Part shown: positions 6,693 to 63,733 of the stretch, piece after piece
Layout: each line of letters starts with the position of its first letter
How positions within the stretch are numbered: position 1 is the stretch's first letter
Assembly (NCBI GenBank): GCA_963735115.1
Contig: CAVTJR010000003.1
Coordinates: 1,352,641 to 1,416,640, forward strand
From: an uncultured Actinomycetota bacterium
Lineage (GTDB): Bacteria > Actinomycetota > Acidimicrobiia > Acidimicrobiales > Bog-793
Direction of reading: 5' to 3'
DNA: 64,000 nt
Translations under genes and position numbers: made by a program
Notes under the pieces: generated by a model
What the model was told of the DNA's origin: nothing
What the model saw: only the letters and a program-made list of their open reading frames with translations
Databases searched by the model: none

Positions 6693-6761
6693 GTGGTGGA
6701 TTCCCCCCGACACCCCTCATACCTGTGCTGAGCAGGGCAAGCCGATTGTCCTGGGGATCGG

Positions 6762-14192: not shown

Positions 14193-15094
14193 GAGGGCGC
14201 AGCGACGGGGCCCGACCGCTGCGCCTCCCCCTTGCGGGCGTTGCCGTCGACCTCATCGAGAATCTGATCCCAGACCTGCTCAGGAAGGTCGTGCCCCATA
14301 CCTTCGATCATCACGAGCTTGGCGCCCGCAATGGCCTTCGCCGTCGCCTCGCCGCCGGACGGGTTGACGAGAGGATCGGCGGTTCCGTGAATGACGACTG
14401 TCGGCACCGACACCGTAGCGAGGCCATGAGTGCGGTCGGGCGAGCCCAGGATCGCACCCATCTGCCGGGAGATGCCGGTCGGCTCGCTCGAACGGTCGTA
14501 GGCCTCCGCCGCCAAGCGACGCAGTCGGTCCTCGTCGGGAGGGAAGCCGGGTGATCCGATGATCTCGAACACCTTCGTGGCGAGATCGATCGATTCCTCC
14601 CTCGAAGTTGGGTTGAGGGAGAGGAGGGCTTCGGCGGCGGCTTGGGAGGGCTGCCCGACGTGGGGGTTGCCTGTGGTCGACATGATCGAGGTGAGGCTGC
14701 GCACCTTCGCCGGGTGATCGATGGCGAGCTGCTGAGCGATCATGCCACCCATCGAGATCCCAAGGACGTGGATCGACTCGATCCCAAGCGCGTCGAGCAG
14801 TCCGGCGACGTCGTCGGCCATGTCGCTCAAGAGGTAAGCGATGTTGGGGTCCTCGCCCCTCAGCAGCGCCAGCAGGTCGGGCACGCCGCACTCGACGAGG
14901 TGGGTGGACAGGCCAGCGTCGCGATTGTCGAAGGCGACGACGAAGTAGCCCTTGGCGGCCACGTTACTGATCCAATCGGAGCCCCAACTGACCATCTGCA
15001 TGCCGAGACCACAGATCAACAGCAGCGGTGGATGAGACTCGTCTCCGGCGGTCTCGTAGTAGAGATCGATCCCGTTCACGTGGGCAGTCGGCAT
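14189..15094 (-). CDS. Alpha/beta hydrolase
   Basis: The sequence reads MPTAHVNGIDLYYETAGDESHPPLLLICGLG...HVLGISMGGMIAQ (GxSxG)...IEGMGHDLP. The start is taken at ATG 15094, whereas the track ORF starts at 15232. Confidence 0.85.
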   Translation of the reverse strand: MPTAHVNGIDLYYETAGDESHPPLLLICGLGMQMVSWGSDWISNVAAKGYFVVAFDNRDAGLSTHLVECGVPDLLALLRGEDPNIAYLLSDMADDVAGLLDALGIESIHVLGISMGGMIAQQLAIDHPAKVRSLTSIMSTTGNPHVGQPSQAAAEALLSLNPTSREESIDLATKVFEIIGSPGFPPDEDRLRRLAAEAYDRSSEPTGISRQMGAILGSPDRTHGLATVSVPTVVIHGTADPLVNPSGGEATAKAIAGAKLVMIEGMGHDLPEQVWDQILDEVDGNARKGEAQRSGPVAAPS

Positions 15095-15188
15095 GACGGA
15101 ATGCTTCCCTGCAGCGGCGAAGCGGTCAAGCTGGCGGCCGCCCGCTTGGGCGCCCGGCAAGATCGACCGACCGTGGCACGATGTGTCG

Positions 15189-22376: not shown

Positions 22377-24240
22377 GTGGCCGACGATCGGAGCACTCGC
22401 GACTGGACGCGCCCGGCGGGCGACCTCCTCGCCGGATGCGACCCCGAGCAGATCGAGGCGATCACCACCACGGCGACGCCGCTGTGCGTGCTGGCGGGAG
22501 CCGGCTCGGGCAAGACGCGGGTGCTCACCCGACGGATCGCCTGGCGGGTGACGAACGGCTCTGCCACCGCCGCTCATGTCCTCGCCCTCACCTTCACCCG
22601 CAAGGCAGCCACCGAGCTGCGATCGCGGCTGGCGACACTCGGGCTTCCGGAGGCCGTCACGGCCGGGACGTTCCACTCCGTCGCGCTCTCCGAGCTGAAG
22701 CGCCTCGCCGCCGAGCAGGGGCGGCGTCCGCCGGTCGTGCTCAGCTCCAAGGTGCGCATGTTGATGAACGTGCTCGACGACGCCGGCATGCCTGCCCGCA
22801 TATCACCCAAGCGGCGAGCGGCCGGGAGCGCGCCGGCTCGGGGCGCTCAGAGGTCCGTGGCGGATTCTCGCCTCCGAGATCGAATGGGCGAAGTCGCGCT
22901 GCCTGCGTCCCGACGAGCTCGTGCGGGCGTCCGCCTTTGCCGGTCGACGGGGCACCTGGGACCCCACGGAGGTGGCAGAGGTGTGGGAGCGCTATGAGCT
23001 CCACAAGCACCGCCGCGGCGTGCTCGATTTCGAGGACCTGCTCGATCGCTGCACCCAGCAGCTGCTGAGCGATCACGAGTTCGCCGCGTCCGCTCGCTGG
23101 CGCTTCCGGCACCTGTTCGTCGACGAGTATCAGGACGTCAACGACGCTCAACAACGCCTCCTGCGCGCCTGGCTCGGCTCCAACGACGATCTCTGCGTCG
23201 TGGGCGATCCACATCAGGCGATCTACTCGTGGAACGGGTCGAACCCGCGCGCCATCACCGATTTCGGCGAGGACTACCCGGCGGCCTCGATCCTGCGGCT
23301 GTCGATCAACTACCGCTCCACACACGAGGTGCTGACGGTTGCCGGCGCCGTCCTCGGGCAGACACGGGCGGCGCAGGCGGGAGGGGTGCGCCCCGAGGGG
23401 CCGATCCCGACGGTCGTTTCCTATGCCGACGAGAGGGCGGAAGCAGCCGGGGTGGCCGAGGTTGCCCGGCGCGCCAAGCGACCCGGGCGGTCCTGGTCGC
23501 AGATCGCCGTGTTGGCGCGCACGAACGCCCAACTGGGCGCCTTCGAGGAGGCGTTCTCCTCTCGCGGTGTTCCCTGCCATGTCGTCAGTGCGGCCGGTCT
23601 GCTCGGAAAGCCGTGGGTGCAGGAAGCGGTGAGAGCGGCCGCTCATACGCCGGACACGGCTGCGCTCGCCGCCTGGACCGCCGACCTCGCCTCGAGCGTG
23701 AGGGCAGGGCACGACGACGAGCAATCGGACGAGGAGGAGGCCGTTCAAGACGACGCTCGGCTCGATCTGTCGGCGTTGGTCCGCCTCGCCGGCGAGTACT
23801 TGGCGGAGGATGTCTTTGCGAACGGGGCGGGTTTCAGGAATTGGCTCGAGGCCGCCCACGGGCGCGAGCAGGATCCCGTGCGCCGCGATGCCGTCGAGCT
23901 CACGACATTCCACCGCGCCAAAGGACTCGAATGGGCCATCGTCTTCGTCACCGGCCTCGAGGACGGTTATGTCCCCATCGCCCACGCCCGTGATCCTGAC
24001 GCCCTCGCCGAAGAGCGCAGGCTGCTGTACGTCGCCTGCACACGCGCTGAGGAGGAGCTGCATTGCTCGTGGGCGGCCGAGCGCTCCTTCGCCTCGAGCG
24101 GGCCGATCCCGCGTGTTCCCTCGCCCTGGCTCTGCGCAATCGAAGCCGCTCACCGGGATCTGCAGCGTTTGCGCAGAGCTGCCCCAGAGGCGGCCCGACG
24201 GGCCCTGGCCGACAGCCGGCGCGCCCTCGAGGGAGCGTGA
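22377..24240 (+). pseudogene. UvrD/PcrA-family helicase, frame-disrupted
   Basis: Frame 0 (22377-~22800) reads LCVLAGAGSGKTRVLTRRIAW...LTFTRKAA...AGTFHS. Frame +1 (open from ~22765, recognisable helicase sequence from ~22860) reads ILASEIEWAKSRCLRPDEL...HLFVDEYQDVN...VVGDPHQAIYSWNG...INYRST...TFHRAKGLEW...LLYVACTRAEEEL. A one-nucleotide shift is needed between ~22790 and 22865. Confidence 0.75.
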
Positions 24241-31658: not shown

Positions 31659-33629
31659 TCAGTCAGGCCTGAAGACGACGACCTGGTCGCGACCCCGCGC
31701 CTTGGCGCGGTACATCGCCAGGTCCGCCTCGTGCACGACTTCCTCCAGCGACGGACCGTGCGTCGGGAAGAGCGCCACGCCGATCGAGGCGGTCACGCTC
31801 CCAAGCCCCGCGCAGGTGGGCGGGAGGGCAGCCAAGGTCTTGCGTACCATTTCGGCCACGCGCTCAGCCCCGCGGGCATCAGCGCCGTGCAACACGAGCA
31901 GGAACTCGTCGCCGCCGAAGCGCACGGCAGCATCACCCGACCGCACGGCGCCGGCCAGCACGCGGGCGGCGTTGCGCAGCGTCACGTCTCCCACGGCGTG
32001 CCCGCAGGTGTCGTTCACGCGCTTGAAGTGATCGAGATCCACGAGGAGGATGGCCAGCTCGGAGCCCATGCGCAGCGCCTGGGCGGCTTCTCTGGGCGCC
32101 AGCTCGTCCCACCAGCGCTTGTTGAGGAGGCCCGTCAGCTTGTCGGTGAGGACTCGCTGCTCGAGCTCGGAGTAGAGCTGGGCATTCCGCCACGCGGCTG
32201 CGGCCAAGTATCCGATGAGAGCGCAGCGCTCGACCTCTTCCTCGCTGAAGCGGTCGAGGCCGTCGCGCCAGACGTCGAGCGCTCCGAGCCGCTGGTCGCC
32301 GGCGATCAACGGGATGACCACGATCGACTCGTCATAACGTCCGCCGGTGCTGCCGGGGATGTGGGCGGCCTCCGCATGGGTGAACGTGTCGCCGCAGTTG
32401 TAGGGCTCGCCCCGGAGAAACGCCCAGCCCGTGATGCCCGTATCCATGAGGTCGTCGACGTCGGCGAGCCCCTCCAACCCCTCGCCTTTCACAACGAGGG
32501 GGCGCAGCGTGTAGTGGTTCCAGTCAGCCTCGAAGATCGCCAAGCGGTCGACGGGCAGCACGCGGGGCAGCAATTCGGCGACGGTCTCGAGAATGTGGAG
32601 CGGATCGTGCTCGGCTTGCAAGGTCCGCGCCGCATTGCCAAGGGCGCGGGCGAACTCACGATCGTCGGCGGCAACCTTCGAGCTCGACAGGGGGGAGTAG
32701 GAGACGGGAATCCGCTCCCGGTCGTGCCGCCCGAGCACGCGCACCGAACGCTCACGGAACCACGATCGATTGACGACCTGGTCGCCAGCCTCGGCGAGCC
32801 ACGGATCGAGCACCACAGGTGGGTGCAGGTAGGTGCCGATGCCGACTTGCTGGCCCAGCTCGATCCAGAGCTGGGCGGCGTGCTCGTCGTCCACCTTGCG
32901 CACGACGATCCTCGTCCCGAGCCGGCCGAAATACGACATGAGCGCCGCCACCTCGGCTCGTGCCCGCGGCTCGGCGCGGATCCGGTCAGCAAAGCTGCCC
33001 TGCAGCATGGCAAAGGCCGGCTGCAATTCCGCCACCTCGGCACTGGCGAGCGACGACACGTCGATCTCGTCGAGGGCCAAGGCGAAACCCATCTTCGAGA
33101 GCCAGTGCGCCCGCTCGAGGCTCCGAGCAGGCGACTCATCGGGCCGCCTCGCCGGCAGCAGCCACACGAGCTCAGCCGGCATGACGCCCGCAGCCGCCGT
33201 CATGGCAGGCAGGTCCTCTCCCACGTCCAAGAACAGCCGCTCGTCCGCCGGCACCACCAGGACGGCCGGGTTCACGATCGGCACGAGCTCGAGCGCCCGG
33301 GCGAAGTCCTCGACGGGCTGCGACGGGCCGTGCAGAGGTCGGCGCAGCACCTCGTAGCCGACGGCGCTCCGGTCGCCGATCTCCAGCAGCGGCTGCAGAG
33401 CGATGCCCTGTTTCAGTAGCTGATTGCCCTCCGAGCTGCCTGAATGCGGGCGCGCGGCGTCAAGCTGAGCCATTTGCACAGAGGAGCCGCCCGAGCCTTC
33501 GCTCTCGGGCGCCGGTATGCCCACGGGCGCAAGAGTACCGGGGGAGGAAGGCACGCTGTCGACTCCGCACCGTCGCTCCTGGTCGCCGCTTCCCGGCACG
33601 CTGTCGGGCATCGCCGCCGGGAGGGTCAC
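31659..33629 (-). CDS. Degenerate EAL - GAF - GGDEF signalling protein (diguanylate cyclase)
   Basis: The N-terminal part is LQPLLEIGDRSAVGYEVLRR (EAL-like, with later metal-binding motifs degenerate). The middle is a GAF-like region. The C-terminal part is LTGLLNKRWW...DLDHFKRVNDTCGHAVGD...RFGGDEFLL...ADLAMYRAK. Confidence 0.85.
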   Translation of the reverse strand: MTLPAAMPDSVPGSGDQERRCGVDSVPSSPGTLAPVGIPAPESEGSGGSSVQMAQLDAARPHSGSSEGNQLLKQGIALQPLLEIGDRSAVGYEVLRRPLHGPSQPVEDFARALELVPIVNPAVLVVPADERLFLDVGEDLPAMTAAAGVMPAELVWLLPARRPDESPARSLERAHWLSKMGFALALDEIDVSSLASAEVAELQPAFAMLQGSFADRIRAEPRARAEVAALMSYFGRLGTRIVVRKVDDEHAAQLWIELGQQVGIGTYLHPPVVLDPWLAEAGDQVVNRSWFRERSVRVLGRHDRERIPVSYSPLSSSKVAADDREFARALGNAARTLQAEHDPLHILETVAELLPRVLPVDRLAIFEADWNHYTLRPLVVKGEGLEGLADVDDLMDTGITGWAFLRGEPYNCGDTFTHAEAAHIPGSTGGRYDESIVVIPLIAGDQRLGALDVWRDGLDRFSEEEVERCALIGYLAAAAWRNAQLYSELEQRVLTDKLTGLLNKRWWDELAPREAAQALRMGSELAILLVDLDHFKRVNDTCGHAVGDVTLRNAARVLAGAVRSGDAAVRFGGDEFLLVLHGADARGAERVAEMVRKTLAALPPTCAGLGSVTASIGVALFPTHGPSLEEVVHEADLAMYRAKARGRDQVVVFRPD

Positions 33630-34414
33630 GCTCCGAAGATTACGGCTCCTTTGCTGGTGTACCAGTCGAGCACCTTCACGACGAGCCTTCCCGCCCGAAC
33701 GGCCGGATCGTCCTCCGCCAGCAGGCGGGCCGTTTCCCGCGATCCGGTCTCGTACAGGCCGATACCGCGCATGGACTCGCCGTCTTCGCCCGCAAGTGGG
33801 CCGGCCACACGCAGGTAGCCAGCCGCTCGCATCTTGGCGAGATGCCCTAGGTGCAGGCTCTGCAACGATGCCAGCTCCTCCTCGGACTCGTCGGGGAGAT
33901 CGTCGGGGCGGATGAGAAGGACGAGCTCATAGCGGTCGAACTCGGCGGGCGGCTCCCCGGGCTGCAGCACTTCCAGCGCGCGAAGCTGCTCCCGGTGAAG
34001 ATCCAGGTGGAAGCTTGCGTTGCCCTCGCAGAGAGACCCGATCGGCGTCGGCTGATCGACCACGACCACTCCCCCGTCCCGAATCATCGCCGGCACTGGC
34101 GTCGTCGCCTTCGCGCCGAGGGCGGTGTGGGCGGCGGCCAGGCGGGCGGCGGAGCGCTCGACAGCGTCGGCCAGCTCGCCGAGCCCGCCGGAAGCCAGTG
34201 CCTGCAGTCGGTCGTCGTCGACCGCTGGGGCGTTGTCGTAGCTCGGATGCTCCCCTGCCATCACCCGCTCGGCCACCTCGGCGATGAGGTCGTTGTTCAC
34301 AGCCACGTGGGCGGCGATGAGCCCTGCGGGCCAGCCCTCCTCCGGCGTGTTGAAGGAGCCCGCTCGCAGGCTCGCGATGAACGGGGCATAGGCGGCTTCG
34401 ATCGTGTCGCTCAT
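33626..34414 (-). CDS. DinB/MDMPI-like N-terminal domain fused to a YciI-like domain
   Basis: The start ATG at 34414 is preceded by GAGGAAGAGGAG. The sequence MSDTIEAAYAPF...HVAVNNDL... is DinB-like. The C-terminal part YELVLLIRPDD...HLGHLAKMRAAGYLRVAGPL...DDPAVRAGRLVVKVLDWYT is YciI-like. A 4-nt overlap links it to the GGDEF gene. Confidence 0.7.
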   Translation of the reverse strand: MSDTIEAAYAPFIASLRAGSFNTPEEGWPAGLIAAHVAVNNDLIAEVAERVMAGEHPSYDNAPAVDDDRLQALASGGLGELADAVERSAARLAAAHTALGAKATTPVPAMIRDGGVVVVDQPTPIGSLCEGNASFHLDLHREQLRALEVLQPGEPPAEFDRYELVLLIRPDDLPDESEEELASLQSLHLGHLAKMRAAGYLRVAGPLAGEDGESMRGIGLYETGSRETARLLAEDDPAVRAGRLVVKVLDWYTSKGAVIFGA

Positions 34415-35751: not shown

Positions 35752-35861
35752 CTCGTAGTCAGGAGCCCTCGGGCGCCAGCCTCGGATCGTCTTTCTCTCG
35801 AGGTGTCGATATCGCCTCGCCTCGTTCGTCGTGATGGCAACGAGCGACTAGAGGAGGATCC

Positions 35862-36213
35862 ATGCGATACCTACTGATGATCTGTGGCGACGAGGCCGGC
35901 CTGGCGAGCTTGAGCCCGGAGGACGACTCCCGCATGTCGAGCGGGTACGAGGACTTCGGCAAGGAGATGGCTCAGCGCGGCGTCCTGCAGGGTGGCGAGC
36001 GCCTGCGGCCTTCAACCGACGCCACGACGGTGCGCGTGCGCAATGGCGACATCATCACGTCCGACGGCCCATTCGCCGAGACGAAGGAGCAAGTCGGTGG
36101 TTACTTCGTCGTGGACTGCAAGGATCTCGACGAGGCCATCGAGGTGGCGTCCAAGAATCCCCGGGGCACAATCGGGATCGATCGAAGTGAGGCCTATCTG
36201 GGAGATGACGTAG
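35862..36213 (+). CDS. DGPF / YciI-like protein; the canonical C-terminus is only reached by a +1 shift near 36153
   Basis: The sequence reads MRYLLMICGDE...SDGPFAETKEQVGGYFVVDCKDLDEAIEVAS in the 35862 frame. The family-typical end RIPGAQSGSIEVRPIWEMT plus stop (36211-36213) lies in the +1 frame, matching the tail of track ORF 35992..36213. Confidence 0.7.
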
Positions 36214-37448
36214 CAGCCGACGTCGCTACGGCCGTTGCCGATGCCTTCAGCGGCGAATGGGGACGGGTGGTTGCCACCCTGATCCGCGCTACGGGCGACT
36301 GGGACGTGGCCGAGGAGTGCACGCAGGATGCCTTCGCGCTGGCGCTGGAGCGATGGCCGCGCGACGGCATCCCGCGCAACACGGGTGCATGGCTCACAAC
36401 CGCAGCCCGCAACCGCGCCATCGACCGGGCGCGCAGGGCGGCCACCGGTGCGGCCAAGCTGCAGGAGGTGGCGGTCTTGTCGTCTCGTAACGACGCGCCG
36501 GACGATGAGGACAGCGGTGTCGCAGACGACCGGCTCCGGCTGATCTTCACCTGCTGTCACCCGGCCCTGTCGATCGAGGCGCAGGTCGCCCTCACACTTC
36601 GAACCCTCGCGGGGCTGACCACCGCCGAGATCGCACGAGCGTTCCTCGTGCCCGAGGCCACGATGGCCCAGCGCCTCGTGAGGGCGAAGCGAAAGATCCG
36701 CAACGCCGGCATCCCCTACCGGGTGCCGCCTGGCCACATGCTGCCTGAACGCACCGGAGCCGTTCTCGGCGTCCTCTACCTGCTGTTCAACGAGGGTTAT
36801 TCAGCCACTGCGGGCACCGACCTCATGCGCCAGAACCTCTCGGGCGAAGCCGTCCGGCTTGGCCGCGTTCTCGCCCGCCTCATGCCGGACGAACCGGAGG
36901 CGCTCGGCCTGCTCGCTCTCATGCTCCTCCACGACGGCCGACGCAACTCGCGCGTGGACGCGGCCGGCGATCTCATCCCCCTCGAGGAACAGGACCGCAG
37001 CCGCTGGGACCGGGCTTCGATCGACGAAGGACTAGCCGTGCTGGCCGGGGCGCTCCGTCGCGCCCGTCCGGGTCCGTACCAGGTGCAGGCCGCCATCGCC
37101 GCCTGCCACGCCACCGCCGCACGAGCGGACGAGACCGACTGGGTGGAGATTGCGGCCCTGTATGACCGGCTGGCGGTCATGGTGCCCTCCCCCGTGGTCG
37201 AGTTGAACCGCGCCGTCGCCGTCGCCATGGCAGAGGGACCTCGCGCCGGGTTGGTCCTCCTCGAGTCGCTGGAGGTCTCCGGTGCGCTCGCCGGATACCA
37301 TCTGCTTCCCGCCACGCGGGCCGACCTGCTCCGTCGCCTCGACCGCCCTGTCGAGGCGGCCGAGGCGTATCGCCAAGCGCTCGAGCAGGCGCCGACGGCG
37401 GCGGAACGCCGCTACCTCGCCCGTCGCCTGGCGGAGACGACGGGCTGA
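36198..37448 (+). CDS. ECF sigma factor with a long C-terminal TPR-like extension (ECF42-type)
   Basis: The sequence reads EWGRVVATLIRATGDWDVAEECTQDAFALALERWPRDGIPRNTGAWLTTAARNRAIDRARR...LAGLTTAEIARAFLVPEATMAQRLVRAKRKI, followed by ~230 aa of helical repeats. The start is unresolved: there is no ATG or GTG in frame between the DGPF region and GTG 36267, and CTG 36198 is possible. In the window the frame is continuous with 35862. Confidence 0.8.
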   Translation: MGDDVAADVATAVADAFSGEWGRVVATLIRATGDWDVAEECTQDAFALALERWPRDGIPRNTGAWLTTAARNRAIDRARRAATGAAKLQEVAVLSSRNDAPDDEDSGVADDRLRLIFTCCHPALSIEAQVALTLRTLAGLTTAEIARAFLVPEATMAQRLVRAKRKIRNAGIPYRVPPGHMLPERTGAVLGVLYLLFNEGYSATAGTDLMRQNLSGEAVRLGRVLARLMPDEPEALGLLALMLLHDGRRNSRVDAAGDLIPLEEQDRSRWDRASIDEGLAVLAGALRRARPGPYQVQAAIAACHATAARADETDWVEIAALYDRLAVMVPSPVVELNRAVAVAMAEGPRAGLVLLESLEVSGALAGYHLLPATRADLLRRLDRPVEAAEAYRQALEQAPTAAERRYLARRLAETTG

Positions 37449-42611: not shown

Positions 42612-45600
42612 TCAGTCCGGTACCTGCTCGAGCCTGGCCGCATGGTTGAGCCGCTCCAGGAAGGGCTTGGCTCCCAGCTCGGTGAAGATGTCCCGGGCTT
42701 CCTTGGCCATCGTGGCGTCCGGGTGATCGGGACCGAGGAGCAGGACGCGGTCGAGCTCGCACAGGGCCAGGTCGAGAGTACAGTCGAGCGCCCGCCACGC
42801 CTCGACCGCCTTTCGGTAGGTCTCGGCCGCCTCCTGCACTCGACCTTCGAGCGCAGCCAATCCGGCCTCCATCGTCAGGCGCTCGGCCGTCATCCACCGG
42901 CCGCGAAAGGGCCTCATCGCCAAAAGAGCCTCTTGCACACCGACGGTGTCACGCAGCCACAGGCAGGCGCGCGCGCGAATCGCTAGAGCATGCCGACTGT
43001 TTGTCCCAGCCGGTTCGAGGGCCACGGCATCGCCCGCCTCCCGCTGGGCCGCGTCGAGGTCACCGGCCGCCAGGCTCACCAGAGAGCGATCCACCAAGTA
43101 CGTGGTGCGCGCGGCCAGGAACTCGCTCGACGCCGCCACTTGCTCACCGGCCTCTTTGAGGGCGGCCGCGGCCGTGGCGGACTCTCCGGTGAGCGCCGCC
43201 AGCATCGCCTTGCGGATGGGCAACGTGACGCGCCTTACAGACGTGGGCTCTCGCTCTTCCAGCTCAGCGATGGCGGTCCGTGCGCGACCCCAGTCGCCTA
43301 GGAAAAGCGATCCTTCGGCAGTGTCGCCCAGCTTCCACATCTCGAGGAGTCGGTCCCCAGCCCGCCTCGCCAGATCAGCCGCCTCCATCGTGGCGAACAG
43401 CGACTCTCTGGGGTTTTCTTCGAAGACAAGGAGGCCCAGAAGACTCTGAGCCAGAGCGAGGTCTCGGAGGGAACCGGCCGCCTCGGCGAGGGCGACATGC
43501 CCTCGAGCGAGTATGACGGCCTCGAGGTGGCGACCGAGGTTGTACAAGGCGTACGACTTGGAGACGATCGTCTGTGCCACGAGGGCAATGTCGTCGAGCT
43601 GCTCGGCGAGGACGAGGGCGGTCTCGGACCACTCGAGGGCGCGCGCGGGCGAGCCCGAGTTCGCGTGAGCGACCGTCAGCTCGCAGGCGAGACCAGCCCT
43701 GACGCGCTCCTCGCCTTCGTCGCCTAGGGCCTCGAAGGCCCGCTCGACCCGCTCGATGGCCTCCGAGTAGCGGTCCAAGCCGCCGAGCGCGCGAGCCAGC
43801 GCGGCGGTGGCACGACCGGCGGCATCGTGGTCGCCGGCCGCGTCGTAGTAGGCAATGGCCTCCTCGAGACGGGCCATCGCCTTTTCGTAGGCCATCGCGC
43901 GCCCTCCAGCCTCGCCGGCGGCCTCGAGGAGCAAGGCGTGCTCGGGCCCGGCCGGTGTCATCTCGAGGGCCTGTTCGAAGAAGGCGAGCGCCTGCTCGGG
44001 CGAGCCGAGGGAGAGGGCGCGCTTTCCTGCCCGCGAGAGCCACTCACGGGCACCGACGGCGATCTCGGTGGCCTCGGTTTCCGGGGCGGCCCGCTGTGCC
44101 TCGACGTAGTGGGCGGCCACGAGGCCGGTGAGCTCCTCGTCGCCGAGGGATTCAAGGTGGCGAGCGACTGCGAGGTGCTTGGCGCTGCGGTCGTGCCTCG
44201 CGAGGGTGGCAGCGGCAACCTCGGCGATGATCCCCTGCACGAAGCCGTGCTGGCCTCGCTGGGGTGAGCGGGGGGCGGTCTCGAGGTAGAGGAACTCCTT
44301 TCGCACGAGGTCCCGCAGCTCAGGCTCGAGGCTGGCGGCGGTCTCCCCGCCGTGCAGGGCGGCCAGGGCCTCGGTCGGAAAGGTCCGCCCGACGACGGCG
44401 GCGTCCTGCAGGAGGGAGCGCTCCTCTGGCGAGAGGGCGTCGAGGCGGGCGGCGACAAGGGCGTGCAGGGTGTCTGGGATCTGGAGAGAGCCAAGTTCGC
44501 CAACAAGGCGGTAGCTGCCGTCCTCGCGCACGAGGACGCCCCGGTCGACGAGCATGCGCACCGTCTCGACGCCGTAGAGGGGGACGCCCTCGGAGCGTGC
44601 CCGCACGGCTTCGACCACCTCGTCCGGCACACCTTCGACGAGGCCGTGGAGGAGGTCGCCCATTTCGGTCTCCGAGAGCGGCTCGAGGTGAAGGGCGGCG
44701 AAGCTGTGCTGCCCGGCCCCCCAGGCGGGCCGACTGTCGAGCAGCTCGGGTCGGGCGAGGGTCACGACCAGGATCGGGTGGTTTGAGGACCACTCGAGGA
44801 TCGACTCGACGAAGTCGATGAGCCCCGCATCAGCCCACTGCAAGTCCTCGAAGACCATGACGGTGGTCGCCGTGTCGGCGACGGCCTCGAAGAAGCTCCG
44901 CCAGGCGGAGAAGAGCTCGTTGCGGTCGCCCGGCGGGGCCTCACCGATGCCGAGGAGGTGGGCGAGGGACGCCCCCACCCAGCGGCGGTCGCGTTCGTCA
45001 GCGACGAACTCGGCCACACAAGCCGAGAGCTTGGCCCTCGAGGAGCCGGGCTCTTCTGACTCGCCGATGCCCGCGCGCATGCGCACCATCTCGCCAAGTG
45101 CCCAGAAGGTGATGCCGTCGCCGTAGGCGGGCGAGCGTCCCTCATGCCAGTGAACCGGCTCGACGAGTCCGTCGGTGTACTTGGCGAACTCCCACACGAG
45201 CCGGGTCTTGCCGATGCCGGGGACACCCATGACCGACAGCAGTCTTGCGCGGTGCTCGCGTTCGGTCGCCGCCAAGAGGTCCTTCATGAGCCGGAGCTCC
45301 TCGGCCCGGCCGACGAAGGGGGCTTCGAGCGCTTCCGAGCGCCCTACGCCTCGTCGCTGGGCGACGACGCGAAGCGCCCGCCAGGCGGTGACGGGCTCGG
45401 ACTTACCCTTCAGCTGAAGCTCCCCCACCTCCGAGAAGCCCCCAGACGGCCATGACGGCGTCACCGATGAACTTCTCCACCGTGCCGCCGTAGCGGGCGA
45501 TGACCCGCTCGGCACGCCCGAAGTAGTCCGAGAGCAGCTCGCGTACCTCCTCCGGGTCGCGCTTTTCCACGAGCGGTGTGAAGCTGACGAGATCTACGAA

Positions 45601-50235: not shown

Positions 50236-50385
50236 CGGCCACCTCCCTCCCACTCGGAGGCGGAGGACGGTGGGGCCGAGGTGTCAAGCGTCAGCTGTTA
50301 CAGGGTCACGGATCACCCGTTACTGCGTTCCACATCACGCGTTATCGATCTGTGACAGATCAGGCGTGGTCTTACAGCTGATCGG

Positions 50386-50459
50386 TGCGCCCCCTGGGAC
50401 TCGAACCCAGAACCTGCGGATTAAGAGTCCGTTGCTCTGCCAAATTGAGCTAGAGGCGC
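50386..50459 (-). tRNA. tRNA-Lys (anticodon CTT)
   Basis: The reverse complement GCGCCTCTAGCTCAATTTGGCAGAGCAACGGACTCTTAATCCGCAGGTTCTGGGTTCGAGTCCCAGGGGGCGCA folds as a cloverleaf. The anticodon loop is CTCTTAA. Confidence 0.9.
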
Positions 50460-50557
50460 CTGCCGGCAGGCCAGACTAGTCGCTCCGGCCGACGACGGAG
50501 CTGAACCGCACTCGGGCACCACAAACTGCAACCGAGGCGCGACTCGACATCGAAACG

Positions 50558-50631
50558 GGTGGCCGAGGGGACTTGAACCCCCGACTTCCAGGACCACAAC
50601 CTGGCGCTCTGCCAACTGAGCTACGACCACC
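50558..50631 (-). tRNA. tRNA-His (anticodon GTG) with an encoded G-1
   Basis: The reverse complement is GGTGGTCGTAGCTCAGTTGGCAGAGCGCCAGGTTGTGGTCCTGGAAGTCGGGGGTTCAAGTCCCCTCGGCCACC. The anticodon loop is TTGTGGT, and the extra 5' G pairs with C73. Confidence 0.9.
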
Positions 50632-50805
50632 ATGGGAGCCGGCACCGTCGGGCGCACCGACGGCGTCGACCCTTCCAGCATGGCACATCGACCGAGGGTG
50701 AAAAAAGCAACCGGCTGCGGCGCCGGTCGCGTCCCAACCAGCTTGTGGGCACCGAATTCCCAGCATCCCGGGTATGCCGCACCCCTCGTTACCTACGTGC
50801 CAAAC

Positions 50806-50834
50806 TTGACCGCTTCGCCTGCTTCGCCTAATTT
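50806..50834 (+). promoter_or_regulatory. Candidate sigma70-type promoter of the pst operon
   Basis: TTGACC (50806-50811), a 17-nt spacer, then TAATTT (50829-50834), about 58 nt before the GTG start. The spacer is a tandem GCTTCGCCT GCTTCGCC repeat, and the region is locally AT-richer. Confidence 0.3.
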
Positions 50835-50892
50835 CATAGTTTCAGTAGCAAATCAGGCCGTGCCCGACGGCCGCCGACAAAGGAGATACAGC

Positions 50893-52179
50893 GTGCCGAA
50901 TCAACGACGCCGCCGAGCGCGGGCCGGTCTCATCGGGGGGGTCTCGGTGCTGGCAGCGGTTGCCTGCATGAGCCTCACCGGCCTCGTAACGGCGAGCGCA
51001 TCCAACCTGCCGCCAGGTAACACCGTCATCATCGGAAGCGGATCACAGACCGCTTACAGCTTGATGACCGGCCTCGACGACCTCTTCAACTCCTCGCAAG
51101 GCTGCAACGAGATCGCCGCCGCCGGAACCTCCGAGGTCCAGTCGTTGAGCTTCAACTGTGCAGCCGGTCCTGCCGGCGCGGTCGGCTTGCCCGCCGCCAA
51201 CGGCGAGAACCCCCTCAATGACGTCGCCCTGCAGGAGCCGCCTCTCGGCGGTTCGAATGGCCTGAAGCAGCTCGAAGGGCAAGTTCCCGTGCTCGGGACC
51301 GAACCGATCAGCTTCGCCACGACGGTGCGAAACCCAACCGCCTCTGATCCGCAGGGCCTCAACTTCGTGAACTACGCCGACGACGCCATCTCCTGGTTCC
51401 ATTTCACCAAGGTGGGCAAGAAGGCGACCCCGTCGGCGAAGATCAAGTCGCTCACGATCTTGCAGCTGGAGAACATCTGGCTCGGGAACATCACCAACTG
51501 GAAGTCGCTCGGCGGCAAAAGCGCTCCCATCAAGGTGTACGTCACGAACTCGGGCTCAAGCTTGCTGACCATCTGGAATACCAGTCTCGGGAACATCAAC
51601 TCCCAGACGTACCCGGAGACAGAAGGTCCCTCCTACGTCATCGAGCAGAACGAGGACGCTTCGATCATCAAGAACGGCAACGAGGCTGACGCCATCTTCT
51701 TCTTCTCTCGCGGCCGCTTCCTGCAGACTTGTGACGAAGGCACCTGTGGTGGCTCGCGAATCCCTGGCGGTGGTACCACCGCCCTCGGCGAGATCAACGG
51801 GGTCAAACTCACCAACGCCAACATCTTGAGCGGCTTGTGGCCCGTCCGGGTCTTCCTGTCGAACGTGTACTCGGACGGCTCGAACTCCAAGATCCCGGCC
51901 GCCAACCAGGCGACGCTCAACTACGTGAGCGAAGACGGTTTCTTGTGCAAGTCGCAAACGTCCCACGGCAAGCGCATCCTCGACCCGCTCACAGGCGTGT
52001 GGTACCGCACCGAGATCGACAACCTCATCGCCGCCGATGGCTTCGTCCCGATACCGATCGGCTCAGAAGGGCTCGTCACGAACCCCGCAGTGCCCGGCTC
52101 GCCCTACAGCGGATACGACTCTTCCGGCAGCGACCCGAGGGGCTACTGCAAGGTGAGCACGACGGACGGGAACGCCTGA
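50893..52179 (+). CDS. PstS-like (PBP_like_2) substrate-binding protein, atypical
   Basis: AAAGGAG lies upstream of GTG 50893. The signal-like N-terminal part is RRRRARAGLIGGVSVLAAVACMSLTG. The body reads VIIGSGSQTAY...ADDAISWFHF...LTILQLENIWLGNITNWKSLGG...VTNSGSS. Codon usage looks AT-richer than in neighbouring genes. Confidence 0.75.
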   Translation: MPNQRRRRARAGLIGGVSVLAAVACMSLTGLVTASASNLPPGNTVIIGSGSQTAYSLMTGLDDLFNSSQGCNEIAAAGTSEVQSLSFNCAAGPAGAVGLPAANGENPLNDVALQEPPLGGSNGLKQLEGQVPVLGTEPISFATTVRNPTASDPQGLNFVNYADDAISWFHFTKVGKKATPSAKIKSLTILQLENIWLGNITNWKSLGGKSAPIKVYVTNSGSSLLTIWNTSLGNINSQTYPETEGPSYVIEQNEDASIIKNGNEADAIFFFSRGRFLQTCDEGTCGGSRIPGGGTTALGEINGVKLTNANILSGLWPVRVFLSNVYSDGSNSKIPAANQATLNYVSEDGFLCKSQTSHGKRILDPLTGVWYRTEIDNLIAADGFVPIPIGSEGLVTNPAVPGSPYSGYDSSGSDPRGYCKVSTTDGNA

Positions 52180-52213
52180 TCTCGACATCACAGCGACCAG
52201 GTGCGCAACTTCG

Positions 52214-52250
52214 CCCGGGTTCGGCTCTCTCCCTCGGAGCCGAATCCGGG
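52214..52250 (+). terminator. Intercistronic hairpin after the first pstS-like gene (attenuator or processing candidate)
   Basis: CCCGGGTTCGGCTC ... GAGCCGAATCCGGG form a 14-bp stem with one mismatch. More stems follow: CTCCGGCC/GGCCGGAG near 52396-52417 and CTGTCG/CGACAG just after. Confidence 0.4.
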
Positions 52251-52447
52251 CGACCGCACTGAGCAAGTGGAGGATCGAACATTCGAATCGCCTACAACCG
52301 AGCGGGACTCCCGCTGAACCTGAGGAAAGCGGGCTTTGCCGGTGGCGGGACTCGAGAATCCGGACTGATGAAAGCCACATTGCACCGAGCGACACTCCGG
52401 CCGAGGACGGCCGGAGCTGTCGCGTTGAAACGACAGTCGAGAGACGC

Positions 52448-53461
52448 TTGAGCAAGAGCACTGAGATGACCCCAGAAGGTGATGGCAGGTCGAGCGGACG
52501 GGACACGGCGGCGATGCCGCGGCCGGTCACGAGCGAGCACCGCTTGGACGATCGCCTGTTTCGCGGGGGCACGCGGAGCGTCGGACTTGCTGTCTTCGGG
52601 CTCTTGTTCGCCATCGGTGCCTTCCTGTTGTGGAAGTCCATGCCGGCCTTCGACAAGAACGGCCTCATCAGCTTTCTCACGACGACCGGCTTCACTACGA
52701 GCGGCGTCGCCCATCCGGTCTTCGGCGTGGCCGCCCTCCTCTTCTGGACAGTCGTCATCGCCCTCATCGCCGCCGTGATCGGTGTCCCCATCGCCGTCGG
52801 CACTGCGCTGTTCATCGTCGAATTCGCCCCGGCGCGGCTCCGACGCGTCCTCATCGCCGTAATCGACCTGCTGGCGGTCGTTCCCTCGATCATCTTCGGG
52901 CTGTGGGGAGTGTTCTTCCTGCAACCCCGGATGGTGGGCTTCGAGCAGTTCCTCTCCGCTCACCTGAGCTTCATCCCCATCTTCGCCACGACCTCGGCCG
53001 TGCTGAAAGGATCGGCATTCATCGCCGGCACGGTCGTTGGGATCATGATCGTGCCCATCGTCACCTCGATCACTCGCGAGATCTTCTCCCTCGCGCCGCA
53101 AGGAGAGCGAGAGGCGGCGCTCGCACTCGGCGCCAGCAAGGCATCGATGATCCGGGCCGTCGTGCTGCCGTTCGGACGCGGCGGCATGATCGGGGCGGTC
53201 ATGCTCGGGATCGGGCGGGCGATGGGAGAGACCGTCGCCGTGGCCACGATCATCTCGACCATCTTCGTCATCAACCCGCACATCTTGCAGGTGGGCGCCA
53301 ACTCGATCGCGGCCTTCATCGTGCTGCGCTTCGGAGCAGGCGGACCGCTTGGCTTGTCGGCGCTGATGGGGATCGGCTTCGTGCTCTTCTGCTTCACGTT
53401 GCTCGTGAACCTGGCTGCGTCCTTCATCGTGAACCGCTCGCGCACCGGAGCGAGCGCCTGA
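52448..53461 (+). CDS. pstC: Phosphate ABC transporter permease PstC
   Basis: The 337-aa polytopic protein reads ...REIFSLAPQGEREAALALGASKASMIRAVVLPFGRGGMIGAVMLGIGRAMGET.... Confidence 0.9.
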   Translation: MSKSTEMTPEGDGRSSGRDTAAMPRPVTSEHRLDDRLFRGGTRSVGLAVFGLLFAIGAFLLWKSMPAFDKNGLISFLTTTGFTTSGVAHPVFGVAALLFWTVVIALIAAVIGVPIAVGTALFIVEFAPARLRRVLIAVIDLLAVVPSIIFGLWGVFFLQPRMVGFEQFLSAHLSFIPIFATTSAVLKGSAFIAGTVVGIMIVPIVTSITREIFSLAPQGEREAALALGASKASMIRAVVLPFGRGGMIGAVMLGIGRAMGETVAVATIISTIFVINPHILQVGANSIAAFIVLRFGAGGPLGLSALMGIGFVLFCFTLLVNLAASFIVNRSRTGASA

Positions 53462-54606
53462 TGTCGATCGCCACACTCGAGAGAGCCGGGGCCACACCGC
53501 CCAACGAGCAGCCGAGCCCTCGCGACCTCCACCGGCGACGTCCCCGCCAATTCACCGGCACGGATCTCGTCGTGCTCGTCTCCTCGGCTCTGGCAGCAAT
53601 CAGCTTCGTGTGGATCGTCTTCTACCAGCTGACGCTGCTGGCCGGCGGCTCCGGCTTCGTGATCTGTGCCCTGCTGTCGTTCCTCGTCATCTACTACCTT
53701 GCGAATCGCAGCCTTTTCGGCCACATGGCGGCCGTCAATCGCGTGATCGGGGCGCTCGTGACCTCGAGCGCAGTCGCAGTCACCATCGCCCTCGCCCTCG
53801 TCGTGGTCTTCCTCGTCTCGCGCGGCTATCACCTCATCAGCCTGCACTTCCTGACCCACGACCAGGGTGACGTCACCCAGACGGCGCCGGCGAGCGCCGG
53901 TGGCGTCAGCCACGCGATCGTGGGCACGCTCGAACAGGTCGGTCTGGCAGTCGTCATCGGCGCCCCGGCAGGCATCATCACCGCCATCTTCATCAACGAG
54001 GTCGGCGGCCGCGTCACCTCCCTCGTGCGCACGGTCGTCACGGCCATGAGCGCCTTGCCGACGATCGTGGCCGGGTTGTTCATCTACGTCATCTACATCT
54101 CAGCCACCCATCACGGCTTCTCAGGCCTCGCCGGCTCCCTCGCATTGTCGATCATGCTGCTCCCGAACGTCACCCGCACCACTGAGGAGGTGCTGAAAGT
54201 CGTGCACGGGTCGCTGCGGGAGGCCTCCATGGCTCTCGGTGCACCGCAATGGCGGACCGTCTGGTCCGTCGTTCTGCCGACGGCGCGCGCCGGCATCGCC
54301 ACGGCGGTGCTGCTCGGCATCGCCCGCATCGTCGGAGAGACGGCCCCGCTGATCGTGACGATCTTCGGCAGCACCTTCATGCAGACGAACCCTCTGCATG
54401 CTCAAGAAGCCCTTCCCTTGTTCATCTGGCAGAGCTATGGCCTCCCCCGCCAGGCGGACATCGAGCGCGCCTTCGCCGCCGGCCTCGTCCTCGTCGGCCT
54501 CGTCCTCATCCTGTTCGTCCTCGCCCGTCTCGTCGCCTCCATCCGCCCGGGGGCGGTCCACCGCATGGTCACGAGGCTGCGCCCGAGCCGTCTGGAGGCA
54601 TCGTGA
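53461..54606 (+). CDS. pstA: Phosphate ABC transporter permease PstA (long N-terminal region)
   Basis: ATG 53461 overlaps the pstC stop (TGATG). The sequence reads ...TEEVLKVVHGSLREASMALGAPQWRTVWSVVLPTARAGIATAVLLGIARIVGETAPL.... Confidence 0.9.
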   Translation: MSIATLERAGATPPNEQPSPRDLHRRRPRQFTGTDLVVLVSSALAAISFVWIVFYQLTLLAGGSGFVICALLSFLVIYYLANRSLFGHMAAVNRVIGALVTSSAVAVTIALALVVVFLVSRGYHLISLHFLTHDQGDVTQTAPASAGGVSHAIVGTLEQVGLAVVIGAPAGIITAIFINEVGGRVTSLVRTVVTAMSALPTIVAGLFIYVIYISATHHGFSGLAGSLALSIMLLPNVTRTTEEVLKVVHGSLREASMALGAPQWRTVWSVVLPTARAGIATAVLLGIARIVGETAPLIVTIFGSTFMQTNPLHAQEALPLFIWQSYGLPRQADIERAFAAGLVLVGLVLILFVLARLVASIRPGAVHRMVTRLRPSRLEAS

Positions 54607-55457
54607 GCACGACCGAAGACTTCGTCTCTTCCGGCACCCTCTCGTCCCCCTACGACTCGGCGGCGCCCGCGGCCGCCTCGCACGCCTCCGAGCTCGTGGC
54701 CGAGGACGTCTCGGCCTGGTTCGGCGGCCACCTCGTCTTGGAGCGGGTGAGCCTTTCGATGGAGCGCTCCAAGGTGACGGCCCTCATCGGGCCTTCCGGC
54801 TGTGGCAAGTCGACGTTCTTGCGCATCTTGAACCGCATGCACGAGGTCGTGCCCGGGGCCGAGCTCGGCGGCCGGGTGCTCCTGGAGGGCGAAGACGTCT
54901 ACGGGCCGCAGATGCGCGCCACCGAGGTGCGCAAGCAAATCGGCATGGTCTTCCAGAAGCCCAACCCCTTCCCCGCCATGACCATCGAGCACAACGTGCT
55001 CGCCGGCCTGCGCTTTGCCGGCACGAAGGTGCGCGCCGCCGACCGCCGTGAGCTCGTGCAGGAGATGCTCGTGAAGGCCGGCCTGTGGAACGAGGTGCGC
55101 AACCGCCTCTCCGCCCTCGGGGGCGAGCTCTCCGGTGGCCAGCAGCAGCGCCTCTGCATCGCGCGGGCCCTGGCGGTGCGCCCGAACGTCTTGTTGATGG
55201 ACGAGCCCTGCTCGGCCCTCGACCCCACCTCCACGCGGCGCATCGAGGAGACGATCCGCGAGATCGCCGACGACGTCACCGTCGTCATCGTCACCCACAA
55301 CATGCAGCAGGCCCAGCGGGTGAGCCACGCCTGCGCCTTCTTCCTGGCGGCCGAGAACCAGCCGGGCCGCATCGTCGAGTCCGGCACGACCGAGCAGATC
55401 TTCGAGAGCCCGAGCGACGAGAGGACGGCGGACTATGTCCATGGGCGCTTCGGCTGA
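54603..55457 (+). CDS. pstB: Phosphate ABC transporter ATP-binding protein PstB
   Basis: GTG 54603 overlaps the pstA stop (GTGA). Motifs are GPSGCGKSTFLR (Walker A), LSGGQQQRLCIARA (signature), LLMDEPCSALDP (Walker B) and ...ADYVHGRFG. Confidence 0.95.
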   Translation: MSTTEDFVSSGTLSSPYDSAAPAAASHASELVAEDVSAWFGGHLVLERVSLSMERSKVTALIGPSGCGKSTFLRILNRMHEVVPGAELGGRVLLEGEDVYGPQMRATEVRKQIGMVFQKPNPFPAMTIEHNVLAGLRFAGTKVRAADRRELVQEMLVKAGLWNEVRNRLSALGGELSGGQQQRLCIARALAVRPNVLLMDEPCSALDPTSTRRIEETIREIADDVTVVIVTHNMQQAQRVSHACAFFLAAENQPGRIVESGTTEQIFESPSDERTADYVHGRFG

Positions 55458-61083: not shown

Positions 61084-61092
61084 TCGGCCGGC

Positions 61093-62488: not shown

Positions 62489-62623
62489 CGGCGCTCGGGC
62501 TCGGGTCCGGTTCAGCATCCGCCACATGGCGACCGAGCGGCGTTAACCTCGATTTGCAGGGTGCGATGAGCCGCCGGTCTCTTCCGCATCGAGACGTGTC
62601 GGCCTCGTGAAGGAGCAGGTGGA

Positions 62624-63730: not shown

Positions 63731-63733
63731 CCA

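What the first reader, a model, noticed from the sequence alone, without database searches (positions are those of the whole stretch)
36140..36270. One-nucleotide frame change fuses a DGPF (YciI-like) gene to its partner ECF42-type sigma factor
Seen in sequence: in the 35862 frame the DGPF protein reads ...EAIEVASKNPRGTIGIDRSEAYLGDDVAADVA... and continues without a stop into the sigma factor (528-codon ORF). The +1 frame from about 36154 reads RIPGAQSGSIEVRPIWEMT-stop (36211-36213), which is the family-typical DGPF/YciI C-terminal end. Skipping one base near 36153 (ccAAGAAtCCCCGGGG context) restores a canonical ~116-aa DGPF protein. With that correction, the sigma frame has no ATG or GTG start until GTG 36267; only CTG 36198 is available.

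Established knowledge: ECF42 sigma factors have C-terminal TPR-like extensions and are genomically paired with separate DGPF genes.

Inference: there are three possibilities.
- It is an assembly indel.
- It is a genuine mutation creating a DGPF-sigma fusion.
- The sigma factor depends on translational coupling or frameshifting.
Basis: partly seen in the sequence, partly recalled or inferred. Interest (0 to 1): 0.55.

Follow-up and report, generated by a model that had tools for sequence, protein, structure and literature searches.

The report
One-base assembly error fuses two genes
The apparent fusion of a small YciI/DGPF protein to its partner ECF42 sigma factor comes from one extra A found only in this long-contig assembly, so it is almost certainly a consensus error in an ordinary two-gene operon.

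Summary
Window 35862-37448 is one 528-codon ORF: a YciI/DGPF domain without its C-terminal end, running into an ECF42-type sigma factor. The cause is one extra A (GATC read as GAATC, 36155-36159). Twelve independent contigs of the same population (99.85-100% identical) all lack it. They encode a separate 116-aa DGPF and the sigma factor. None of 77 other species has a fusion.

Across about 50 kb compared with those contigs, the window has only two private indels. The second is also GATC to GATTC (22863-22867) and breaks a UvrD-like helicase. The 528-aa product is on record from a single 1.75-Mb contig. Best reading: a motif-linked consensus error of a long-read assembly (about 0.85), not a fusion, lesion or programmed frameshift.

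One real puzzle survives the correction. The codon at the conserved sigma start is GTA (36210-36212), overlapping the DGPF stop TAG. GTAG, GTAA or CTAG replaces the usual GTGA/ATGA in 15 of 67 species, from roughly ten independent origins. The roughly 19 codons downstream still evolve as coding sequence and hold invariant residues. The annotated GTG 36267 start is probably too short, and sigma may be made by termination-coupled initiation at a non-canonical codon.

The parts
35804..35830 (+). ECF-type promoter-like motif TGTCGAT-N16-CGTC upstream of the DGPF gene
   Evidence: TGTCGA-N17-CGTC, always with spacing 17, lies 57-99 nt upstream of the DGPF start in 22 of 73 orthologous loci. Background is 17 of 1600 random 150-nt windows. 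That it matches the published ECF42 target motif is from my memory and was not checked.
35851..35857 (+). Shine-Dalgarno GAGGAGG for the DGPF gene
   Evidence: Read directly from the sequence, 4 nt before ATG 35862.
35862..36213 (+). DGPF/YciI-family gene. True length is 351 nt (116 aa plus TAG); here it is 352 nt because of the extra A.
   Evidence: With one A removed the product equals P0121, named 'YciI family protein' by NCBI and found on 10 contigs. YCII score is 65.3 bits over profile 1-94 of 95.
36155..36159 (+). GAATC: the GATC site that carries the window-private extra A (36156 or 36157)
   Evidence: All 9 other sequences in alignment A1 read AAG-ATCCCC; the other 190 columns are identical. 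All 14 BLAST alignments, from 12 distinct contigs, show this single gap.
36198..36200 (+). CTG in the sigma frame, a possible near-cognate start, with GAGG (36189-36192) 5 nt upstream
   Evidence: Read directly from the sequence. The codon is a by-product of the conserved DGPF residues I-W. It is not present in every species that has GTA at the junction.
36200..36204 (+). GGGAG, Shine-Dalgarno-like, 5 nt before GTA 36210
   Evidence: Read directly from the sequence. It lies inside the conserved W-E codons of DGPF.
36210..36213 (+). GTAG junction: sigma-frame codon GTA (36210-36212) overlapping the DGPF stop TAG (36211-36213)
   Evidence: Orthologues have GTGA (34), ATGA (13), CTGA (5), GTAG (8), GTAA (6) or CTAG (1) at this exact register.
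36210..36266 (+). 19 sigma-frame codons (VAADVATAVADAFSGEWGR) upstream of the annotated start; probably the true N-terminal part of sigma
   Evidence: A12, F13, W17 and G18 are invariant in 56 orthologues. Differences among species with a non-canonical junction codon concentrate at third codon positions, 152/205/484. The AF2 model has one helix spanning residues 2-28. The Pfam r2 match extends upstream of residue 20.
36267..37448 (+). ECF42-type sigma factor as annotated in public records (393 aa, GTG start, TGA stop)
   Evidence: P0001 is 100% identical and named 'RNA polymerase sigma factor' from an Acidimicrobiales bacterium MAG. Domains, in coordinates of the 528-aa ORF: Sigma70_r2 135-194, r4_2 228-279, DUF6596 297-397, sub-threshold TPR_2 485-512.
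22863..22867 (+). GATTC: second window-private one-base insertion at a GATC site, breaking a UvrD-like helicase (22377-24240, 620 aa when corrected)
   Evidence: All alignments that cover it (L092, L093, L095, L096, L101, L102; 5 distinct contigs) lack one T. The corrected ORF is 620 aa, the length of the product called on the other contigs.

Best explanation
The locus is an ordinary DGPF(YciI-like)-ECF42 sigma factor operon. It has a conserved ECF-type promoter, a 116-aa DGPF gene, and a sigma gene in the -1 frame whose first codon overlaps the DGPF stop.

The 528-codon fusion exists only because this assembly reads one GATC site as GAATC (extra A at 36156/36157). The extra base is most likely a consensus error of a long-read assembly, tied to the GATC motif, and is not present in the organism's DNA.

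What is shown: the base is private to this assembly, and a second private insertion of the same kind breaks another gene. What is inferred: the sequencing technology and the cause of the error. In the real organism DGPF and sigma are made as two proteins.
For: 1. Independent contigs. Twelve distinct contigs from NCBI MAGs, ENA megahit assemblies and Logan single-run assemblies carry the same locus at 99.85-100% identity. All have AAGATC, a separate 116-aa DGPF and the sigma gene.

2. Record counts. The 528-aa product is on record from one contig only, 1,753,808 bp long. The intact DGPF is on 10 contigs.

3. Private indels. Over window 1-50257 the only window-private indels are 36156 and 22865. 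Both are GATC to GAATC/GATTC, the same change seen on either strand, and both are in coding sequence. The chance that two random one-base insertions both do this is about 6e-5. Conditioned on duplicating an A or T it is about 2e-3.

4. Ratio to substitutions. In 19870-41584 I found only one substitution (22801) carried by all covering contigs against the window, next to two frameshifting indels. That ratio suits error better than evolution.

5. No conserved fusion. 0 of 77 other species loci are fused. The two closest fused database proteins, P0002 and P0003, come from contigs with at least two frame changes inside the DGPF gene. Among the best 150 representatives, the extended proteins P0248 and P0164 are frame-garbled, and P0187, P0263 and P0210 show no YCII domain.

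6. Domain damage. The fusion truncates the YCII domain (profile 1-85 of 95, 46 bits). The corrected protein matches 1-94 at 65 bits.

7. Literature. Residual errors inside GATC are reported for nanopore assemblies (PMC12392509). Large nanopore-only, Medaka-polished soil MAG sets exist in ENA/NCBI (PMC12313526).
Against: No reads could be inspected. The source's sequencing technology is inferred only from contig length. The insertion extends a single A to AA rather than a long homopolymer. The methylation-linked nanopore errors I could read about are mostly substitutions. Only 2 of about 382 GATC sites are affected, so the motif link rests on two events. A rare real variant in the sampled strain cannot be formally excluded.
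Confidence: 0.85

Rival explanations
1. The extra A is a genuine strain-specific frameshift mutation. This strain would make a 57-kDa protein: a DGPF domain lacking its last strand, joined to a full-length sigma factor. That is a recent lesion or pseudogenisation.
For: The ORF is open over all 528 codons. The sigma frame is stop-free for 119 codons upstream of the junction, across the whole DGPF gene, so a +1 insertion anywhere in DGPF would give a fusion. One in-frame DGPF-sigma fusion of unknown origin exists in the protein database (P0004). [quoted passage not shown]
Against: It is private to one assembly out of 13 of the same population. It is accompanied by a second private frameshift of the identical GATC type in an unrelated gene 13 kb away. 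The window is otherwise 99.98-100% identical to its nearest relatives L105 and L108, so two inactivating indels against a handful of substitutions would be an odd mutational spectrum. The frameshift also destroys the conserved G-x-IEVRP end of the YCII domain.
Confidence: 0.11
2. The fused frame is a natural, conserved DGPF-sigma fusion in this lineage. Alternatively, the extra base is real and is compensated by programmed +1 ribosomal frameshifting at AAG-AAU.
For: Three other proteins with both YCII and sigma domains appeared among the closest database hits (P0002, P0003, P0004).
Against: 0 of 77 species loci are fused. P0002 and P0003 change frame at different positions and carry further frame breaks in the same gene. 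Every other contig of the same population lacks the base. No shift-prone motif or conserved stimulator is present, and there is nothing to compensate once the base is removed.
Confidence: 0.02
3. On the corrected sequence only: the public annotation is right, sigma starts at GTG 36267 (393 aa), and the conserved upstream codons are a relic.
For: GTG 36267 is the first canonical start. GGGGA lies 3 nt upstream. NCBI and JGI call the 393-aa product. Several species with a non-canonical junction codon also have GTG at this valine.
Against: That GTG encodes a conserved valine and is present whatever the junction type. Starting there removes invariant A12, F13, W17 and G18 and two-thirds of the predicted first sigma-2 helix. 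Eight species with a non-canonical junction codon lack any canonical start there, and in L032 and L065 the first one is at codon 79-88. The upstream codons show coding-type substitution patterns, including in the sister pair L019/L051, which both have GTAG.
Confidence: 0.35

Closest known systems
ECF42 sigma factor / DGPF (YCII-related) gene pairs, e.g. Streptomyces venezuelae Sven_0747, Sven_4377, Sven_7131 (Liu, Pinto & Mascher 2018, as summarised in PMC8999054)
   Same: It has sigma-2 and sigma-4 domains plus a C-terminal extension of about 200 aa (DUF6596 and a sub-threshold TPR hit). A YCII-domain gene lies immediately upstream in the same orientation. A conserved ECF-type promoter motif lies in front of the pair.
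   Different: Nothing essential differs once the extra A is removed. The organism is an uncultured Acidimicrobiales bacterium, and the sigma start codon position holds GTA.
Natural YCII-ECF sigma fusions (Q9A8M4_CAUVC of Caulobacter vibrioides, mentioned in PMC8999054)
   Same: A YCII domain and an ECF sigma factor sit in one polypeptide, which is what the window's ORF looks like.
   Different: Here the YCII domain is cut at profile position 85 of 95 and followed by 18 out-of-frame residues. The fusion is absent from 12 contigs of the same population and from 77 related species. I did not examine the Caulobacter protein.
Residual motif-linked errors in nanopore-only bacterial assemblies (errors inside GATC reported in PMC12392509)
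   Same: These are isolated errors at a palindromic methylation-type motif in an otherwise very accurate long-contig assembly. Here there are two events in about 50 kb, both at GATC.
   Different: The technology of the source is not known to me. The events here are one-base insertions, and methylation of GATC in this organism is untested.
Translational coupling by termination-reinitiation at 4-nt stop/start overlaps (ATGA/GTGA; PMC6728339, PMC10666635), and the recJ GUA start-codon mutant rescued by IF3 mutations (Haggerty & Lovett 1997, cited in PMC2268962)
   Same: The sigma-frame first codon overlaps the DGPF stop in 67 of 78 species, mostly as GTGA or ATGA. GUA acting as a weak start in a coupled, SD-poor context has a genetic precedent.
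   Different: In 15 of 67 species the overlap reads GTAG, GTAA or CTAG, which the cited surveys do not treat as an overlap at all. No natural GUA-initiated gene is known to me. Nothing here has been tested experimentally.

Membership tests
ECF42 group of ECF sigma factors | Sigma-70 region 2 and region 4 only (ECF core) | tested here: met
   PF04542 at 34 bits, PF08281 at 39 bits, TIGR02937 at 52 bits.
ECF42 group of ECF sigma factors | C-terminal extension of about 200 residues with TPR-like repeats | tested here: met
   DUF6596 (127 bits) plus a sub-threshold TPR_2 hit at 485-512. The AF2 model shows an all-helical C-terminal half with pLDDT 85-97.
ECF42 group of ECF sigma factors | Conserved neighbouring YCII/DGPF gene | tested here: met
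   A 116-aa YCII protein lies immediately upstream in 12 contigs of the same population and in 75 of 78 species loci.
ECF42 group of ECF sigma factors | Group-specific target promoter in front of the DGPF gene | tested here: inconclusive
   TGTCGAT-N16-CGTC is conserved in 22 of 73 loci. I could not read the primary paper, so identity with the published motif rests on memory.
ECF42 group of ECF sigma factors | Assignment by the ECF classification HMMs | not testable with these tools
   No ECF-group HMM library was available. Assignment rests on domain architecture and gene neighbourhood.
YCII-related (DGPF) protein family, PF03795 | Full-length match to the family profile above the gathering score | tested here: met
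   The corrected protein scores 65.3 bits over profile 1-94 of 95. The product as written in the window scores 46.2 bits over 1-85 only.
Natural YCII-sigma fusion protein | Single ORF with both domains intact, conserved in orthologues | tested here: not met
   The YCII domain is truncated. 0 of 12 same-population contigs and 0 of 77 species loci are fused. Other fused database entries are frame-garbled.
Programmed ribosomal frameshift site | Frame change conserved in relatives, with a shift-prone motif | tested here: not met
   The frame change is absent from all relatives. No X_XXY_YYZ or +1 shift motif is visible at 36150-36213 (read by eye).

The most novel reading that the evidence does not exclude
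After the artefact is removed, this operon belongs to a recurrent class: 15 of 67 species, from roughly ten independent origins. In this class the ECF42 sigma factor has no canonical start codon at its conserved N-terminus, and the codon overlapping the DGPF stop is GUA (or CUA) instead of GUG/AUG.

The DGPF stop codon drifts among TGA, TAG and TAA at background frequencies, as if the overlapping sigma start imposed no constraint. The downstream N-terminal codons nevertheless stay under protein-level selection.

The reading this allows: sigma synthesis depends on ribosomes that terminate on DGPF and restart at, or one base before, the stop with little regard for start-codon identity. That would be a natural case of start-codon-independent or GUA-initiated termination-reinitiation, and it would tie sigma output to DGPF translation.
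Probability: 0.4. Interest if true: 0.5.

Novelty: not a real feature. Interest (0 to 1): 0.2.

Why it matters
For the finding as written, the fusion should not be carried forward as biology. It is also a useful warning. Single-base GATC to GAATC errors in long-read MAGs create convincing 'domain fusions' and 'pseudogenes'; here they produced a sigma-factor fusion and a broken helicase. Such products already sit in public protein collections (P0122, and probably P0002, P0003 and P0248).

For biology, the locus is a normal member of a large but poorly understood regulatory pair. ECF42 sigma factors number more than 10,000 sequences, and the role of the DGPF partner is unknown.

The surviving puzzle is that a fifth of these operons lack a canonical sigma start at a strictly conserved stop/start overlap. 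If confirmed, it would say something about how sigma and DGPF amounts are tied together. It would also show that gene callers systematically truncate these sigma factors by about 20 residues, including invariant ones.

Tried and rejected
- An exact look-up of the 528-aa product among gene positions found nothing, although the sequence is in the protein collection. The source contig could therefore not be fetched or named.
- A junction pattern scan of JGI metagenome contigs gave 0 hits.
- Look-ups with window ORFs 15093-16634, 50632-52179 and 6717-7742 failed, probably because the start-codon choice differs.
- A reference-free scan asked whether deleting a base at each GAATC/GATTC site merges ORFs. 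It flagged 2924/3065, 3544/3571, 15207 and 16492/16545 as well as 22863. Comparison with independent contigs showed these extra sites are identical in all assemblies, so they are false positives caused by long open off-frames in 68% GC DNA.
- Window 50258-64000 could not be compared with any other assembly.
- The primary ECF42 paper (PMC6182237) and the recJ GUA paper (PMC179599) are not held, and searches for the promoter motif in the literature found nothing usable.
- I considered -1 ribosomal frameshifting at the end of DGPF as the route to sigma. I rejected it because the last codons hold no slippery heptamer and the P-site tRNA cannot re-pair in the -1 frame (reading output).
- I considered stop-codon readthrough for the nine spacer-type loci. 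I rejected it because several have further in-frame stops.

Full report
**What is in the window**

Positions 35862-37448 (+) form one 528-codon ORF. Pfam finds a YCII-related domain at residues 1-106, but it matches only profile positions 1-85 of 95. This is followed by Sigma70_r2, Sigma70_r4_2, DUF6596 and a sub-threshold TPR_2 hit. NCBIfam agrees on an ECF-type sigma factor.

The +1 frame from about 36151 reads RIPGAQSGSIEVRPIWEMT and stops at TAG 36211-36213. Removing one base at 36155-36157 gives a 116-aa protein ending ...ASKIPGAQSGSIEVRPIWEMT. Its YCII score rises from 46.2 to 65.3 bits and covers profile 1-94 of 95.

**Is the extra base real?**

The 393-aa sigma factor read from GTG 36267 is in the public protein collection (P0001, 'RNA polymerase sigma factor', MAG Acidimicrobiales bacterium). 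Fetching every contig that encodes it, and later every contig that encodes a neighbouring gene, gave 12 distinct contigs covering the junction:
- four NCBI MAGs;
- five ENA megahit assemblies;
- three Logan single-run assemblies.

All 12 have a separate 116-aa YCII gene followed by the sigma gene.

In a 190-nt alignment the window differs from nine of them at one column only: AAGAATC in the window against AAGATC elsewhere. Over up to 21.7 kb the identity is 99.85-99.95%. The exact 528-aa product is on record from a single contig of 1,753,808 bp, whereas the intact DGPF is on 10 contigs. The extra A is therefore private to one very long contig.

**What kind of event is it?**

I tiled window 1-50257 with independent contigs of the same population. 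Identity to the closest ones is 99.98-100%.

There are exactly two window-private indels. One is 36156. The other is an extra T at 22865/22866, which all six alignments that cover it (five distinct contigs) lack. It breaks a UvrD-like helicase that is 620 aa elsewhere and is again 620 aa when the base is removed.

Both events turn GATC into GAATC/GATTC, which is the same change read on either strand. With 382 GATC sites in 50 kb, two random one-base insertions would both do this with probability about 6e-5. Even if one conditions on duplicating an A or T, the probability is about 2e-3.

In 19870-41584 I found only one substitution (22801) that all covering contigs carry against the window. Two frameshifts in coding sequence at one motif, next to a single private substitution, in a 1.75-Mb contig, is the signature of a motif-linked consensus error of a long-read assembly. 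It is not the signature of evolution.

Residual nanopore assembly errors inside GATC are documented (PMC12392509). Large nanopore-only, Medaka-polished MAG collections are in ENA/NCBI (PMC12313526). That this window comes from such a data set is my inference and is not shown.

**Is there a conserved fusion elsewhere?**

No.
- A scan of species-representative genomes returned 80 loci. In the 75 with an adjacent DGPF gene, that gene ends at its own stop, and none is fused.
- The two closest fused database proteins, P0002 and P0003, come from contigs with Flye-style names. Each has at least two frame changes within the 350-nt DGPF gene, at positions different from the window's.
- An exhaustive search of 1.8 billion representatives put stand-alone sigma factors of 400-430 aa at the top.
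- Of the longer proteins I checked, P0248 and P0164 are frame-garbled remnants, and P0187, P0263 and P0210 show no YCII domain.
- Only P0004 is a clean in-frame join (…IEVRPLWE|EWGRVV…). No DNA is available for it.
- Natural YCII-ECF fusions are mentioned for other ECF groups (PMC8999054), but this locus is not one.

**How the real locus most likely works**

- A motif TGTCGAT-N16-CGTC (35804-35830) lies 58 nt before the DGPF start. It is conserved with invariant spacing in 22 of 73 loci, against about 1% background.
- DGPF has a strong Shine-Dalgarno sequence and ATG 35862.
- Sigma lies in the -1 frame.
- In 67 of 78 species the first sigma-frame codon overlaps the DGPF stop by the classic 4-nt arrangement. 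This arrangement is known to give termination-reinitiation coupling (PMC6728339, PMC10666635).
- From established knowledge of ECF42 (PMC8999054), the C-terminal TPR-rich extension is required for activity, and the YCII neighbour is suspected to take part in regulation.

I infer an autoregulated two-gene operon with translationally coupled products.

**The part of the finding that survives**

That is true, and comparison with other species makes it more interesting than the fusion.

At the conserved overlap the 67 species read GTGA (34), ATGA (13), CTGA (5), GTAG (8, including this one), GTAA (6) and CTAG (1). So in 15 species the start position holds GTA or CTA. On a neighbour-joining tree of the sigma proteins these 15 are scattered among GTGA relatives, which implies roughly ten independent changes.

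DGPF stop usage at the overlap is TGA 52, TAG 9, TAA 6. This is indistinguishable from background:
- sigma-gene stops are 52/22/7 (Fisher p = 0.10);
- 36 genes of this species are 28/7/1 (p = 1.0).

Little selection therefore seems to keep NTG at the junction.

Yet the codons between the junction and V20 look translated:
- A12, F13, W17 and G18 are invariant in 56 orthologues.
- Differences among the 15 species with GTA or CTA at the junction fall 152/205/484 by codon position, like the next 11 codons at 249/119/446.
- The sister pair L019/L051, which both have GTAG, differs 1/1/4 by codon position and by an in-frame two-codon indel.
- The Pfam r2 match and a single AF2 helix (residues 2-28, pLDDT 72-81) run through the annotated start.
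- Eight of the 15 have no canonical start up to V21. In L032 and L065 the first one is at codon 79-88, which would delete most of sigma-2.

Caveat: much of the between-species divergence may predate the GTG-to-GTA changes, so only the L019/L051 pair tests the GTA state directly.

My reading, at about 0.4-0.5, is that sigma is initiated at or next to the GUA/UAG overlap (or at CUG 36198) by ribosomes finishing DGPF. GGGAG (36200-36204) lies 5 nt upstream of GTA. GUA as a weak start in a coupled context has one genetic precedent: the recJ GUA mutant, cited in PMC2268962. The alternative, about 0.35, is the annotated 393-aa protein.

**Verdict**

The fusion is not a real feature. It is a one-base consensus error (confidence about 0.85) in an ordinary DGPF-ECF42 operon of an uncultured Acidimicrobiales bacterium. 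A genuine private lesion is possible (about 0.1). A conserved fusion or programmed frameshift is effectively excluded.

Interest in the finding as stated is low. The recurrent non-canonical stop/start overlap is a modest, testable lead.

Noticed in passing
window 22863-22867 (gene 22377-24240, + strand): A second window-private one-base insertion, GATC to GATTC, splits a UvrD-like helicase that is 620 aa in five other contigs. It is the same motif and the same kind of change as at 36156.
   Followed up: yes
window 36210-36213; loci L010, L019, L023, L024, L026, L032, L040, L043, L044, L049, L051, L053, L065, L080: The sigma-frame codon overlapping the DGPF stop is GTA or CTA (GTAG, GTAA, CTAG) in 15 of 67 species, from roughly ten independent origins. 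The N-terminal codons downstream stay conserved and coding-like. Eight species have no canonical start before the conserved core. Public annotation truncates these sigma factors by about 20 residues.
   Followed up: partly
loci L012, L030, L046, L052, L063, L064, L068, L084, L089 (about 10320-10480 in most): In all nine loci where sigma sits in the same reading frame as the DGPF stop rather than overlapping it in the -1 frame, it begins at its own start 3-78 nt downstream. Eleven loci lack the -1 overlap, so 9 of 11 in one frame is far more than the one in three expected, although the loci are related to one another. Several have extra in-frame stops, so readthrough is unlikely. This may be a trace of an ancestral fusion or split.
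   Followed up: no
window 33626-34414 (- strand): A second, longer YCII-domain protein (262 aa in the other contigs) lies about 1.4 kb upstream on the opposite strand, next to a GGDEF/EAL/GAF protein. There are thus two YCII genes near one ECF42 sigma factor.
   Followed up: no
window 35804-35830: A TGTCGAT-N16-CGTC motif with invariant spacing is conserved in front of the DGPF gene in 22 of 73 species loci. It is probably the autoregulated ECF42 promoter.
   Followed up: partly
L090 1501-3054 and L091 1501-3021: The two database 'YCII-sigma fusion' proteins closest to the window (P0002, P0003) each sit on contigs with at least two frame breaks inside the DGPF gene. P0248 and P0164 look the same. 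Frameshift-made fusions of this gene pair recur in public protein collections.
   Followed up: yes
protein P0004 (510 aa, no DNA available): A clean in-frame join of a complete DGPF to sigma (…IEVRPLWE|EWGRVVATLIR…). It deletes the sigma N-terminal tail, and the join lies between two short TGGG(A/G) repeats. It could be a real deletion fusion or an assembly collapse.
   Followed up: partly
window 22801: The window has T (CATATC) where all four covering contigs have C (CACATC). This is 64 nt from the second insertion, inside the same helicase gene.
   Followed up: no
whole window: GATC is 2.5-fold over-represented: 474 observed against 191 expected from base composition, at 67.8% GC.
   Followed up: no
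window 9690-9718; 44817-45353; 49543: Strain-level structural differences from other contigs: a GGC-rich intergenic stretch with several small indels in L106 and L107; a stretch of about 0.5 kb (44817-45353) that does not align to L109; and a 22-nt indel against L109.
   Followed up: no
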